Shown here piece after piece: positions 30,001 to 36,000 of a DNA stretch of 64,000 nucleotides. A program made the position numbers. Source of the DNA: Escherichia coli (GTDB lineage: Bacteria > Pseudomonadota > Gammaproteobacteria > Enterobacterales > Enterobacteriaceae); assembly GCF_011045215.1 (NCBI RefSeq), contig NZ_CP049201.1. One strand, given 5' to 3'. Positions within the stretch are counted from its first letter, which is position 1. Each line of letters begins with the position of its first letter.

Positions 30001-33000
30001 ACCAACATCAACGCAGGGGACAAGGATAATAACCGGAGATAATTATTCATCACAGTATCAGGATTTGTTTGAAGAGAGGATCAATGAGCTTATTGATGAA
30101 AGTCTGGCGATGAGTGGTGAACGACGTTGCCTTCACTTTTCTCCTCAGGCTGCCAGAATCTGGACGGATTATTACAATGATGTGGAATCGAAGCTGGGGG
30201 GATTGGGGCCTTTAAGACATTGCCGGGAATATGCTGCTAAAAATGCAGAGTATATGGCAAGACTGGCAGGACTTATTTACCATTCGAGCGGTGAAGAGGG
30301 GGAGATTTCCCCTTACACTGCAGAAATGGCGAGAGAATTAGCAATATGGTACGGTAATGAGTATGTGCGGTTGTCTAATCCGTTAACTTTTGACAACTCC
30401 GCCCTGACCGTACCTGTGCGACTCATTCCAGAGGAGCTTGAACTTTTCAACTGGATAAAAAGCTATTGCATTGAGAAGGGGATCCTCTGTATGAAAAAAA
30501 ATGACATTTTACAGCGTGGCCCGAACCGTTTCCGGAAAAAGGATAAAATCAACTGGTTACTGGATTTACTGTATGAACAAAACAGAGTTGTACCGGTTAT
30601 TGAGGGAAAAACGTTGTGTGTCGCACCTAACTTTGACCTCTGAACGACTTAATCGTTGAGTACATATAGTCTCCTCTGCTACTTGCGGAGGAGACTAATG
30701 TCTTTACCATGTCAGCGTTGTATTAGAAAACTCTGGTACAGGTCAGTCAGTAAATATAACTGGTGTAACCACTATTTACTATTGGATAGAGTGTTGCTCA
30801 GGATATTGTCGGCTTTAGTCTGAGGTGAGGTGGGGCCTTCATTGTTTTCGTGTTCAATAAATAATTTAGGTTAATTAGTATTATTAGTGGGAGTTATGTG
30901 ATCTGTTATGTTGTCTCTTTTATCGTAATGTCACTCCTCTCTATGCTAAGTATTCTGTATGTGTGTAATACATATATCTCCATACACTACGCAGTGAAGC
31001 ATATGGGGGGAAGCTGTATGGTGAATTATGTGGTGTAATGTTGGGAACATAAATCTGTTATGTTATGTTGTCTTGTACGCACTTAACACTGGTTACGTAC
31101 CGGAACACTATTAGAGTATGTTATGGCTCCGTTACAGTTTATAAGCATAGGTAAATATAATATTTTCTGTATGAAATAATCTTCTTATTGTGAGGTTAAA
31201 TATCTGTAGGCTCTCTCTGCAGAGTCTCTGTTTTTACTTAATGGTACGGCAATATTAATAGCGATGTTGTCTGTGGCTACCCGGTACTGACTTTTGTGAA
31301 GATCAGATTATATCCTGTAAGTAATTGAATGGTGCTTTCTTAAACTCAATTATATGAGGTGTGTTTTTTATTGTAATTCGTTCTGGTCCTCAGTTTAAGA
31401 AAGTCTTACTGTATTCTGAATCATTACCCTATTACTGTAATGAGGTAATACGAAACAGTTTTATCAGGTTGTCTGTGCTGCTGGTTACCTCTTTTATTAA
31501 TGCCGCGGTACGGCGTTTCTGTACTCTCAGTATTTATGTAATTCCACTTTCCTGTCAGTTTTATAAAGTAAGGACTATAAAATGTATAATGCCAATCCCA
31601 ATTACGAAATGAATTTCGCGATTCTGAAAGATGTGAATGAACACATGGAAGGTCTGTTTCAACGTTTTTCTAAACTGTTACCTTTCAGAATTGATTTTGC
31701 TTACAGGAAAGACACGCCCAGTTTTGGTCTTTCCTGTAAGCACAGTATGTGTATGGAAATGTACCGCTTACTTAGCGAAACCCAGACGATGTTGGCGGGA
31801 TATTACTGGGTAATGGAATATACACCAGACAAAGGGCTTCATATTCATTTTATCGGCTATCTGGATGGACAACGTCACAAGAACTCTTATCAGATATCCA
31901 GGCAACTGGGAGATATCTGGAGGCGGATCACGGAAGGGGAGGGTTATTTTCACCTGTGCCGGGCTAAAGATAAATACCCGGTGCGTATCGATCATGTAAT
32001 TCACTATAGTGATAAATCTGCGGTAGACGACTTACGTTACGCCCTTAGCTATCTGGCGAAACAGGATCAGAAAGAACACGGTATTATTCTGGGGCGTAGC
32101 AGGCTTCCCGAAAAAAGTAACCGCGGCCGACCACGACATAACTGAATTATGGGGGCTTATGTCCGAACTATCGTAAGTTATCGCGTGGATTTGCCTTCAC
32201 ACGAATTTCAGTCGTGGTGCCGCCGGGAGACAGGTACAAGTGATAACGCATATGGTTTATAAATCTGACAGCGATGAACTAGCAGTACTGCGGGCAGAAA
32301 ATACCCGGCTGGTCTCATTACTTGAAGCTCATGGGATTGAATGGCGACGTAAACCGCAGAGCCCTGTGCAGTGCGTTTTCGTATTATCCACGGATGAGAA
32401 AGTTGCGTTATTTTGTCGACTGTTTCGCGGGCGTGATGATGTATGGGCCCTTCGATGGGAAAGCAAAACCAGCGGAAAGGGTATTCGTCTACCTGGCTAA
32501 CGAATGGCTGTTGGGAATATGCAGTAAGCCCTGGATAAAATGTGGGGACTGCGCTCACCGTCAGTTGATCCCTGTATCTGATCTCATCATCTACCAGAGG
32601 TAGTGTACAATATGCCGATATCGAACTGATACTTAATTAAAATATCTAGAGTGTGATATATCTCTGAGAACTATCAATACGAATATTAAAAATACTTCCA
32701 GAATAACAGCAATACGGGTGGATCTCCATTACCCTCCTGTGATTGACAACGGGGATACCATTACCTGTTTTCCTAACCTGACCCCCGGAGAAATATCTCG
32801 TTTCCGTAACTCGCTGAATGCGAAAATTAATGCAGATCAACACCGTAAAAAACAACAAGGCAAACGCACCTACGCAACGTCGGTTTGTATTATCTGGGCG
32901 AAAGAATATACGCAGTCCTTTAAATGTCATTATCACGTCTGCCTGTTGTTTAACAAAGACGCCTATTACCACCTGGGAGACTATGAGCGCTCTGACACCC

Positions 33001-36000
33001 TGAGAGGGTTAATTACCGGAGCCTGGTACAGTGCCTTAGGGTTGGAACTGGAAGATCACCAGGGATTAGTTCATTTCCCTACTAATGGGCGTTACATCCT
33101 GGATATTAACGATCCTGATTTCCCTGAGCAGTACCAGCGCTTATTGGTACGTCTGGATTATTTGACGAAGCTCGACACTAAAGCATCAGGCCAGCGTAAC
33201 TTTGGCTACAGCGGTTTTTGACCTATTGTAACTATAAGGTGATTTATTATGTATATAGAATCTTACCAGAAAAAATACTTTTCCTTGTGATTTGGTACTG
33301 AGTTAACATTTAGTACAGTATTAGGGCCTTCATTGTCAGGCCCTGCTTTGCAATTTTTCAAAGCTCCAGGTAAGCTTTTTTCCGATAAACATGCTGATAT
33401 CAAACACCGCTTCTTTACCAGCACTATCAAAAATAATTCTGATATTTGGTTTTTATCTCCTTGTCTATAGATTCGTCACCAATACTGTAGCTTGTATCAT
33501 TACTTCCTCAATTAAGTGGTTAAAGCTCTAATGCTAAAAGAATGCAATATTGGTAGAGAGTTTTTTGAGCACCATGACAGATTTTCTTTACTCAGTATTT
33601 CATCAATAACAGACTTAGCAAATGGAATGGTGAGCAAGAATGAAGCTTTTTTATCTTTATTTGGAACTATGCGGTTACCACCATTTACCCAATGTGCTTC
33701 AAGTCTGACATTTAGATCTTGCCATTTTACACCTTTTCGAACACGTTCTTTTTTTAATGAATAGAAAAAAGTTGATTTACCATTTGGTGTCGGGTGGTTA
33801 TCCATTAACATTAGCATAAGAGGGATTCCCCAGTCAGGCATATAGCTATAATGCCAGATCCCAAAACTATCCGCGATCCTGACCATCCGAATGAATGATT
33901 TTTGATCAAGCTTCCCTTCACCTCCCCTTAATGCTCTACAAACAACCCAGGCCCGATAGAGGTTATCAAATTGCATGAATTGATTTCGGCGAGATACTGC
34001 AATTTCTGCTGAAGCAGAGCGTTCATTACCTGAAAAACCAGAAAAACGTTGAGATCTTGCGCTTAGGGGACAGAACTCTTTATTTTCTGGTGAAGCGGAA
34101 TGAGAGAATCTGGGGCTATAATCAGGATTGGGAGTGACTAATCCGCTATCATGGACAGGTTTCTCGCATGAGATACAACGTAATGGTGGGTAGTCATCTC
34201 GTGATATACCCTTAACTTTTTGTGCATATGCATCAATACTGATTTCAATCCAATAACCTTTTTCCAGAACTTCAGCTTTATTCATAATGTGTTGCCTCTG
34301 ATATTGTTCATGTGATTATTGATAATAATAGATTACAGATAAAAAAGAAGAAATATGTATTTAAATCTTGTATTACAATGTATATATACAATTCAATCAA
34401 AAATTAGTGTTTTTAATCTCATGGCATAATCAGAAAACAGCAGAACGGGGTATTTGTTTTAATGGCGCCTCGATAAAAATTGAGATAACAGTTGCAGTTT
34501 AAAACACCTCTATTTCGTGGTTCTGAATATAGAGGCTTTACGATTTATTAAAATATTACTAAAATATGTTCATATTCCGATGCACAGACCTTTCACTTCT
34601 GCTTTTTCTCATTTTTGTCAGTTGTAGACTCAGTTTTTTTACGTTTTAACTTTAATATCATCTTTCCATTGCTAAATTCAATTTCTTCGTAATCGCGGAA
34701 AACAGTAATAACCAGAGCAATACCAATGGATGCTGCAGCAATAATAACAGCGATATCAAGTCCGGATAATGCAGCTAAAGAACTAACAGCTAAAACAGAA
34801 CCTCCACCAGTGAGTGGAATAGTAGCACAAGTTGCGATCATGGCAGCAATAACAACACCACTTACTTTTGTTACAGCCTTTGCTTTTTTAATTTTATTTG
34901 CTAACTCTCCTTCAATAATTATAATTTCAGCTCTGCTGTTTTGAGCTTTTTCGAGTTCATCCTTCGATCTTACAGTAAATTCAGCCATAATTATCCTGGT
35001 CTTGTAACATTTATGCCATCTTAAGTACTTTTATTTAGAGCGTTAACACGCTCCGCAGTCTATTAAACGCAACCGCAATAAAAATTAATGTATTTTACCA
35101 ATCGTAGTCAACTAAAAGTTTCTTAATACCCTGAACGCTACATCCCATACTTCTACTACGATTTGAGCAACATTTTGGTATTGACACTGCAGTTTTCCCA
35201 ATGAAATATGGGCTTATTCAGCTTTTATTGTTTCCTGAATCTATATTATGCGTACACGAATTGATTATCTGGTGAATAAATACTGTTTTACAGAACTGAA
35301 TGAATCTCCACGTCTTCGTCGGCAGTGGCAGGATGTTCTGGATGAGTGCCGGCAGACAGGGGCCGGGCCAGAAGAACGGCTGCGTATTGCACTGCTGAAT
35401 GTGGATTACGTCACCAGTTTTGAGCTGCCTTTTCGCTTGCTGCTTACCCGGACACCACAACTGATTGCCGCGCTGCGTGAAGAATGGGGCATCAGCCAGA
35501 AAAATGTGGTGTTCAACGATAAACGGTTTGGCTGCGTGTACAGCCTGAAGGCCAGCCTTTCGGGTGTGCCGGATACATTCCGGTATCATCTGTCTCACCG
35601 TATTCGTCGCGTGGTTGGGAATGAAAACACATCATTGCCATATCAGCAGGTTGCCCGGGAAGTGAAAGCGTCCCGTGAACGGCTGAAGTATGCGCTGGAA
35701 GCAGGTTTACTGGTGACCGCACTGGACGGGCTGTTCTGGTCTGGCAGTCAGCGTATTGCGGCTGATGTCCTGAGATTAAGACAGAGCGGAATGCCGGTAG
35801 TGACAACGAATGTGGAGGTGCACGATAACCTGACGGGAACAACCCGCAAAGTGCCGGCATACCATCTCTGATACGACCATCAGGGGGGGCTCTGGCAGCA
35901 GTATGACATTCTTTATACTTTTACCCGTGCCTGAAAACATGTGCTAAGGAAACGGGAATGGCAAGGTCCGATTACGATATTATCAATCTGTCTCTGGAAC

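What the first reader, a model, noticed from the sequence alone, without database searches (positions are those of the whole stretch)
31582..33221. Decayed CP4-57-like block: two YagK/YfjJ-type genes flanking a shattered helicase-like N-terminus
Between the two YagK/YfjJ-family genes, only about 120 codons of another gene survive, split over two frames (…LRAENTRLVSLLEAHGIEW… and …KCGDCAHRQLIPVSDLIIYQ). The second YagK-like gene also lacks its N-terminus. In CP4-57-type elements this position holds a defense-associated helicase (YfjK-like), so a defense gene may have been lost or replaced here.
Basis: partly seen in the sequence, partly recalled or inferred. Interest (0 to 1): 0.4.

Follow-up and report, generated by a model that had tools for sequence, protein, structure and literature searches.

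The report
Dead primase-helicase stub in island
This is an ordinary piece of gene wreckage in an E. coli genomic island: the first 117 codons of a primase-helicase gene joined to a beheaded replication-initiator-like gene. It is not a relic of the YfjK helicase, and public annotation already marks the stub as a pseudogene.

Summary

- **First gene (31582-32145).** An intact 187-aa gene for a distant, HUH-Rep-like relative of YagK/YfjJ ("Gp2a").
- **Second gene (32698-33221).** A true YfjJ homologue (44% identity) that lost its first 30 codons in a 135-bp deletion between short direct repeats.
- **Spread.** The same junction occurs in about 130 of 5,426 complete E. coli genomes. RefSeq annotates the stub as a pseudogene.

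Sister islands carry Mokosh, ShosTA or AbpAB at this slot, so "cargo lost or replaced at a defence hotspot" is reasonable. The lost gene's own role (defence or replication) is untested.

One curiosity remains. The Mokosh-bearing islands truncate the same gene within 0-2 nt of the same position.

The parts
31582..32145 (+). Gp2a: intact 187-aa HUH-Rep-like protein, a distant relative of YagK/YfjJ (named 'inovirus-type Gp2 protein' in RefSeq)
32252..32479 (+). PrimPol-helicase pseudogene, piece 1: codons 1-76 (coiled-coil leader and start of the AEP-TOTE domain)
   Evidence: tblastn aa 1-76, 91% identity. Pfam AEP-TOTE 2.1e-6. 85% DNA identity to the intact gene L004:9051-11411. RefSeq pseudogene 'TOTE conflict system archaeo-eukaryotic primase domain-containing protein; frameshifted; missing C-terminus'.
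32496..32597 (+). PrimPol-helicase pseudogene, piece 2: codons 84-117 in another frame (CxxC motif region). Homology to the intact gene stops at 32596-32597.
   Evidence: tblastn aa 84-117. Alignments show a 4-nt and a 1-nt deletion and an abrupt end of homology at ...CATCTACC(A).
32598..32697 (+). 100-nt junction filler. At least its right two-thirds is a diverged copy of the region upstream of an intact second gene. It ends at the 135-bp deletion.
   Evidence: Window 32638-32704 matches L012 6001-6067 at 87% identity. By eye, similarity extends left to about 32612. The filler occurs in 135 of 5,426 genomes, always at this junction in the rows inspected. IS3 insertions within it, with a 5-bp overlap suggesting a target duplication, are secondary events.
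32698..33221 (+). Gp2b: true YagK/YfjJ-family (HUH-Rep-like) gene lacking its first 30 codons, start codon and native upstream region. The frame is still open in this window.
   Evidence: Pfam YagK_YfjJ_C 7.5e-50. 44% identity to K-12 YfjJ. 97% DNA identity to the intact 204-aa genes in L009 and L012 from codon 31 onwards. The deletion lies between TTYCAGWAT direct repeats. Sister copies carry independent frameshifts or stops.
28187..30643 (+). Island backbone upstream: AlpA-type regulator (28187-28567) and YfjI/DUF3987 protein (29192-30643)
   Evidence: Pfam Phage_AlpA 9.2e-19 and DUF3987 5.4e-84. 54% and 41% identity to K-12 AlpA and YfjI.
23951..25153 (+). Island tyrosine integrase at the clpA-proximal end
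   Evidence: NCBIfam integrase domain 9.4e-55. 34% identity to K-12 IntA.

Best explanation
The block is non-functional wreckage at a mosaic junction inside a CP4-57/SpLE1-type integrative island that sits next to clpA.

**Shown**
1. The ancestral module, still intact in O157:H7 and about 680 other complete E. coli genomes, is a Rep-like gene (Gp2a) followed on the same strand by a 786-aa PrimPol + XPB-like SF2 helicase gene.
2. In this lineage the primase-helicase gene was cut at codon 116-117.
3. It was joined to the upstream region of a second, YfjJ-type Rep-like gene (Gp2b). In islands such as that of strain A20, Gp2b sits directly after YfjI and before the same downstream genes as here.
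4. A separate 135-bp deletion between short direct repeats removed Gp2b's start.
5. The stub then acquired a 1-nt deletion, shared by all copies of this junction, and a 4-nt deletion present in only some copies.

**Inferred**
- Neither the stub nor the truncated Gp2b makes a working protein.
- Gp2a remains functional.
- The joining events were illegitimate recombination at the edge of the island's variable cargo region. The same slot carries Mokosh, ShosTA or AbpAB in sister islands.
- The lost gene was most likely a stand-alone cargo or 'conflict' gene rather than the island's essential replicase. I put this at about 50% against 35%. No experiment bears on it.
For: - **Intact counterpart and domains.** (AEP-TOTE 1.7e-98, ResIII 3e-24, Helicase_C 5.4e-8; PADLOC PrimPol 2.5e-147; XPB/Rad25, RadD, and the 7nqd/7nqf chains that match the primase domain).
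- **Extent of survival and breakpoints.**
- **Origin of the right-hand side.** The A20 island runs YfjI, intact Gp2b, a 257-aa gene, a 131-aa gene, then an ECs1377-family gene. It is collinear with window 32638-38000 except for a 135-bp gap.
- **Decay.** Truncated Gp2b copies are independently frameshifted or carry stops in five sister loci. The stub lesions differ between copies.
- **Prevalence.**
  - Gene at least 80% covered in 684 genomes, out of 1,729 with any match.
  - This junction in 128-135 genomes.
- **Hotspot.**
- **Cargo-like nature of the intact family.**
  - More than 3,300 clusters at 50% identity.
  - Present on 130 plasmids. The four inspected are large (52-569 kb); three have a typed replicon.
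  - Neighbours vary: AbiEii, PIN/PhD, HigB, restriction-modification-like genes, DUF4011 helicase.
Against: - The truncated Gp2b frame is still open here. RefSeq calls it an intact CDS from an ATA codon in the closest genome, so residual expression cannot be excluded.
- The first 82 codons of the stub still form an ORF behind the native start.
- Events 2 and 3 could have been one event or several. No island with an intact primase-helicase gene followed by Gp2b was found.
- The left 15-40 nt of the filler has no identified source.
- A replication role for the lost gene is not excluded. In enterobacterial islands it always follows a Rep-like gene and an AT-rich 0.9-kb spacer.
Confidence: 0.88

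Rival explanations
1. One reading: the stub is the N-terminus of a YfjK/AbpB-type defence helicase, as found in CP4-57.
For: K-12 CP4-57 has abpB/abpA immediately after yfjJ. The intact counterpart does end in an SF2 helicase.
Against: - BLASTP of the intact 786-aa protein against AbpB gives E 0.008, limited to the Walker-A region.
- The genes are on opposite strands.
- No AbpA or AbpB signal exists anywhere in the window.
- The fragment hits the PrimPol family AEP-TOTE.
Confidence: 0.02
2. The lost gene was part of the island's own replication module. In this model the HUH Rep-like Gp2a nicks, and the PrimPol-helicase primes and unwinds. Its loss then marks an island that can no longer replicate after excision, rather than a lost defence gene.
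For: - The gene is co-oriented with and about 110-155 bp downstream of Gp2a in all enterobacterial islands seen.
- PrimPol-helicase fusions are typical replicases of mobile elements (PMC5862659).
- A preprint describes AlpA plus Rep-like rolling-circle initiators in such defence-carrying elements (PMC12458937).
Against: - Gp2a stays intact and under purifying selection where the primase-helicase is dead.
- Outside enterobacteria the fusion has no Rep-like neighbour. The Cupriavidus 187-aa neighbour is unrelated.
- It sits among defence-like genes on large plasmids, most of which have a typed replicon of their own.
- Islands such as A20 and CP4-57 lack it entirely.
Confidence: 0.35
3. The stub is retained because it is useful, for example as a short N-terminal coiled-coil peptide, a regulatory RNA, or a DNA site such as an origin or recombination site.
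For: - More than 1,000 genomes keep only the 5' end of the gene.
- Two different cargo junctions fall within 0-2 nt of each other.
Against: - Different lineages carry different frameshifts, a 17-nt deletion or nonsense codons within the stub, so no common ORF is preserved.
- Other truncation points also exist: about aa 83, 136, 196, 302 and 454.
- There is no Rfam hit in the region.
Confidence: 0.08

Closest known systems
[not shown]
TOTE conflict systems (TPR, OB, TBP, Effector), which give the Pfam AEP-TOTE family its name
   Same: The primase domain belongs to Pfam PF22548 (1.7e-98 on the intact protein).
   Different: No TPR, OB/cold-shock or TBP partner gene lies next to the intact gene in any of the roughly ten contexts inspected. 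It shares a domain family but is not a TOTE system.
The PDB chains 7nqd/7nqf (deposited as 'TPR_REGION domain-containing protein') and the PADLOC 'PrimPol' cas-associated model. From my memory, not checked here, these chains are a CRISPR-associated primase-polymerase.
   Same: The AEP domain matches 7nqd/7nqf at 6.7e-8. The PADLOC PrimPol model PDLC01465 matches at 2.5e-147 over its full length.
   Different: No cas genes are adjacent, and the protein is fused to an XPB-like SF2 helicase.
YfjK/AbpB with AbpA (K-12 CP4-57 anti-phage pair)
   Same: It occupies the same slot, just after the YfjJ-type gene of a CP4-57-type island.
   Different: The sequences are unrelated apart from generic SF2 motifs, and the strand is opposite.
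YagK/YfjJ ('inovirus Gp2') family and HUH rolling-circle Rep proteins
   Same: Gp2b is 44% identical to YfjJ. Gp2a shares the RxD, HxH and YLxK motifs and a Rep-like fold.
   Different: Neither protein has been tested for nicking. Gp2a falls below Pfam thresholds. Gp2b is truncated at its N-terminus.

Membership tests
[not shown]
   The fragment scores Pfam AEP-TOTE 2.1e-6, 28.0 bits against a cut-off of 27. It is 85% identical in DNA and 79-91% in protein to the intact gene.
[not shown]
   Only aa 1-76 and 84-117 of 786 are present in the whole window. It is therefore a pseudogene of the family, not a functional member.
TOTE conflict system | Neighbouring TPR, OB(CSD) and TBP components (definition from PMC12458937) | tested here: not met
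   None is annotated, and none has such a Pfam hit, next to the intact homologues in E. coli, on four plasmids or on four metagenomic or genomic contigs.
YfjK/AbpB helicase | Sequence homology to AbpB, with an AbpA partner | tested here: not met
   BLASTP E 0.008 over the Walker-A region only. tblastn with AbpA and AbpB against the window gives no hit.
YagK/YfjJ (Pfam PF11726): second gene | Domain match above threshold and homology to K-12 YfjJ | tested here: met
   169.6 bits against a cut-off of 25.8. 44% identity, E 3e-47.
YagK/YfjJ (Pfam PF11726): second gene | Full-length protein with its N-terminal ~30 residues and own start codon | tested here: not met
   Homology to the intact 204-aa genes begins at codon 31. 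A 135-bp deletion removes the ATG.
YagK/YfjJ (Pfam PF11726): first gene | Domain match above threshold | tested here: inconclusive
   17.5 bits against a cut-off of 25.8. However, the profile-profile probability is 88.9% with motifs aligned, and some homologues at 38-43% identity carry PF11726 and/or PF23343.
HUH rolling-circle Rep endonucleases | HUH metal-binding motif, catalytic Tyr motif (YxxK) and Rep fold | tested here: met
   [not shown]
HUH rolling-circle Rep endonucleases | Site-specific ssDNA nicking and joining at an origin | not testable with these tools
   This needs an in vitro nicking assay.
CP4-57-type integrative island | Backbone order int, AlpA, YfjI, YfjJ-type gene | tested here: met
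   34%, 54%, 41% and 44% protein identity to the K-12 proteins, in the same order and orientation. DNA similarity to CP4-57 itself is negligible.

The most novel reading that the evidence does not exclude
The cut at codon 116-117 may not be random.

Two unrelated cargo junctions abut the primase-helicase stub within 0-2 nt of each other. One is this window's Gp2b module, found in about 130 genomes. The other is a Mokosh type I system, found in 296 genomes. The sequence differs immediately to the right of the break.

This could mark a recombination hot spot through which the island family swaps cargo. One candidate is a nick or termination site used by the adjacent HUH Rep-like protein. This would resemble the illegitimate recombination described at rolling-circle origins, a parallel I recall from memory and did not check.
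Probability: 0.1. Interest if true: 0.55.

Novelty: already known. Interest (0 to 1): 0.15.

Why it matters
On its own it matters little. It is a correctly annotated pseudogene at a mosaic junction that recurs in about 2% of complete E. coli genomes.

It is useful in three ways:
- **Annotation.** The stub is a PrimPol-helicase remnant, not AbpB. The 187-aa "intact" call for the beheaded Rep-like gene in some RefSeq genomes rests on an ATA start codon.
- **A map of the slot.** The position after the Rep-like gene of these islands is a cargo hotspot. It holds Mokosh, ShosTA, AbpAB, the untested PrimPol-helicase, or, here, two unknown genes.
- **An untested family.** The PrimPol-helicase fusion is large and widespread, with no assigned function. 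If it proved to be a defence gene, its frequent decay would be of interest.

Tried and rejected
- **YfjK/AbpB homology.** Tested and rejected.
- **TOTE system membership.** Rejected for lack of partner genes.
- **A conserved Rep-like + PrimPol-helicase pair beyond enterobacteria.** The Cupriavidus plasmid has a 187-aa gene overlapping the start of its homologue, but that gene is unrelated to Gp2a.
- **An island with an intact primase-helicase gene followed by Gp2b, or by Mokosh.** This would show the pre-deletion state. None was found.
- **More continuations after ...CATCTACCA.** Scanning species-representative genomes and metagenomes gave only three: intact, this junction, and the Mokosh junction.
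- **A structured RNA in 23000-37000.** Rfam found only CRISPR repeats and an RtT-like element near clpA, and nothing in the finding itself.
- **Promoter, terminator and repeat scans of 30640-33520.** Promoter-like sites were at the level expected by chance. A few terminator-like sites and short repeats turned up, but nothing that explains the junction.
- **A two-gene system formed by the 257-aa and 131-aa neighbours.** The partner is not conserved in distant homologues, and the fold search found nothing.
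Full report
**What is in the sequence**

- The interval contains three things on the + strand.
- ORF 31582-32145 is an intact 187-codon gene.
- Between 32252 and 32603 lie two short ORFs in different frames.
- ORF 32718-33221 has a frame open back to 32658. It encodes a YagK/YfjJ-type protein that starts at profile position 13 of the Pfam domain.

**Identity of the middle fragment**

- Both short ORFs hit Pfam AEP-TOTE, an archaeo-eukaryotic primase family, at E 2.1e-6 and 6.9e-4.
- RefSeq genomes with the same block annotate it as a frameshifted pseudogene missing its C-terminus, named [quoted passage not shown].
- The intact gene is present in O157:H7 and many other strains, directly after the same upstream gene. 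It encodes 786 aa.
- Its domains are AEP-TOTE at residues 49-277 (1.7e-98), ResIII at 423-565 and Helicase_C at 639-738.
- By sequence, the helicase half resembles archaeal XPB/Rad25 and RadD. The primase half matches PDB chains 7nqd/7nqf and a PADLOC cas-associated "PrimPol" model (2.5e-147).

**How much survives**

- tblastn of the intact protein against the whole window finds only aa 1-76 (32252-32479) and aa 84-117 (32496-32597).
- The alignment shows a 4-nt and a 1-nt deletion between these pieces.
- Homology ends abruptly at ...GATCTCATCATCTACC(A), window 32596-32597.
- All of the catalytic primase core and the whole helicase are gone.

**Not YfjK/AbpB**

- In K-12 CP4-57, abpB (yfjK) follows yfjJ but lies on the opposite strand.
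- AbpB and the intact protein share only a Walker-A-region match (E 0.008).
- Neither AbpA nor AbpB has any tblastn hit in the window.

**The two flanking genes**

The second gene, "Gp2b":
- It is a genuine YfjJ homologue: 44% identity, E 3e-47.
- Intact 204-aa versions exist, L009:7910-8524 and L012:6114-6728. The window copy matches them at 97% DNA identity only from codon 31 onwards.
- Compared with the strain A20 island (L012), window 32638-32704 matches the region about 50-110 bp upstream of the intact start, and 32696-33233 matches from codon 31.
- A 135-bp deletion therefore removed the ribosome-binding region, the ATG and 30 codons. It lies between TTYCAGWAT direct repeats.
- Truncated copies in five sister loci carry independent frameshifts or stop codons, so the truncated gene is decaying.
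- In this window its frame is still open. RefSeq calls the equivalent copy in the closest genome an intact 187-aa CDS starting from an ATA codon.

The first gene, "Gp2a":
- It is only remotely related to YagK/YfjJ. BLASTP against YfjJ aligns only an 18-residue stretch around the HxH motif (E 0.001), and against Gp2b gives E 0.18. Its Pfam hits are below threshold.
- Homologues at 35-44% identity are annotated as rolling-circle replication-associated proteins, and most carry PF23343; a few also carry PF11726.
- A 29-sequence profile aligns to Gp2b with 88.9% probability, matching the RxD, HxH and YLxK motifs.
- It is intact in every island examined, with dN/dS 0.04-0.18.

**How the junction arose**

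- The A20 island runs int, AlpA, YfjI, intact Gp2b, a 257-aa gene, a 131-aa gene, an ECs1377-family gene. This is the same downstream set as window 33318-38000.
- O157-type islands run int, AlpA, YfjI, Gp2a, PrimPol-helicase, then variable cargo.
- The window is a chimera of the two. The primase-helicase gene is joined at codon 116-117 to a diverged copy of the Gp2b upstream region, which forms the 100-nt filler at 32598-32697.
- That filler is found in 135 of 5,426 genomes, and at this junction in the rows inspected.
- IS3 copies inside the filler in some strains are secondary insertions. A 5-bp overlap between the flanking matches suggests a target duplication.
- All five other copies of this junction that I aligned share the 1-nt deletion. 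The 4-nt deletion is missing from one copy, which has a nonsense codon instead. Decay therefore continued after the truncation.

**Prevalence**

| Feature | Complete E. coli genomes (of 5,426) |
|---|---|
| Any match to the primase-helicase gene | 1,729 |
| At least 80% of the gene present | 684 |
| This junction | 128-135 |
| Stub joined to other cargo (Mokosh) | 296 |

- ST131 and Nissle-type strains have a different cut, near codon 83.

**The slot is a cargo hotspot**

- In the 296 genomes of the second junction type, the stub is followed by a 1,652-aa MkoA (E=0) and a MkoB (1.9e-151), that is Mokosh type I.
- Where the primase-helicase gene is intact in L005 and L028, ShosT and ShosA follow, convergently.
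- K-12 has AbpAB at this position.
- For the lost gene itself there is no functional evidence. Its family is very large: more than 3,300 clusters at 50% identity with E below 1e-30.
- It occurs on 130 plasmids. The four inspected are large, and three have a typed replicon of their own.
- Its neighbours are variable and often defence-like: AbiEii, PIN/PhD, HigB, restriction-modification-like genes, a DUF4011 helicase, strawberry notch. They are never TPR/OB/TBP partners. A Rep-like neighbour appears only in enterobacterial islands.
- I therefore lean towards a stand-alone cargo or "conflict" gene (about 0.5) over an island replicase (about 0.35).

**An unexplained coincidence**

- The Mokosh junction and this window's junction end the stub within 0-2 nt of each other: ...CATCTACCAC|TACACGG against ...CATCTACC(A/T)|GAGGTAG.
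- The two right-hand sides are unrelated, and no homology resumes downstream.
- Scans of species-representative genomes and metagenomes found no third continuation.
- About eight truncation types are known: aa 83, 117 twice, 136, 196, about 302, 454, plus IS disruptions. I estimate the chance of one such coincidence at roughly 0.04.
- It could be chance, or a recombination hot spot. I could not distinguish the two.

**Verdict**

- The family assignment (YfjK-like helicase) is wrong.
- The feature is ordinary and already annotated as a pseudogene, so interest is low.

Noticed in passing
window 32596-32597; L013:7332 and L015:7332: Islands carrying Mokosh type I (296 genomes) truncate the same primase-helicase gene within 0-2 nt of this window's breakpoint, yet the sequence to the right is unrelated. 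This may be a recombination hot spot or a coincidence. I estimate the chance of coincidence at roughly 0.04, given about 8 truncation types.
   Followed up: partly
[not shown]
   Followed up: partly
window 31698-31742: A perfect 16-bp inverted repeat with a 13-nt loop lies inside the Gp2a coding sequence. Its predicted fold energy with RNA parameters is about -27 kcal/mol. One stem position shows a compensatory change (T-A here, C-G in O157-type alleles), with mismatched intermediates in other alleles. It might be an origin or regulatory hairpin.
   Followed up: partly
window 23407-23494 (and a degenerate third repeat near 23527): There are two full repeats (Rfam CRISPR-DR4, 50 bits each) and one degenerate repeat between clpA and the island integrase. 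From memory, not checked here, they look like type I-F repeats. No cas genes were seen among the flanking ORFs I checked.
   Followed up: no
window 23598-23800: An RtT-like element (Rfam RF00391) and two copies of TGGCGGTGAGGGGG lie just before the integrase. The repeated sequence looks like the 3' end of a tRNA-Ser gene on the minus strand and may be attachment-site remnants. ARAGORN finds no intact tRNA anywhere in the 64-kb window, so the island's other end probably lies outside it.
   Followed up: no
window 28669-29002 versus 29135-29479: A 73%-identical partial duplicate of the 5' end of the YfjI/DUF3987 gene lies upstream of the intact copy. It is another gene fragment and is annotated as a partial DUF3987 CDS in sister islands. 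An IS1 pseudogene sits at about 27350-28050.
   Followed up: no
L001:13359-13922 (NZ_CM171611.1), equivalent to window 32658-33221: RefSeq annotates the beheaded Gp2b as an intact 187-aa protein (WP_057697917.1) whose CDS begins at an ATA codon. The same truncated gene is flagged as a pseudogene in other genomes. This is probably an annotation artefact.
   Followed up: yes
window 37027-48639: Further right the island carries a 579-aa ORF and a 3,106-aa ORF. The corresponding genes in the sister islands L012 and L005 are annotated as a ShlB/FhaC-type transporter and a CdiA contact-dependent inhibition protein. I did not check the window ORFs themselves.
   Followed up: no
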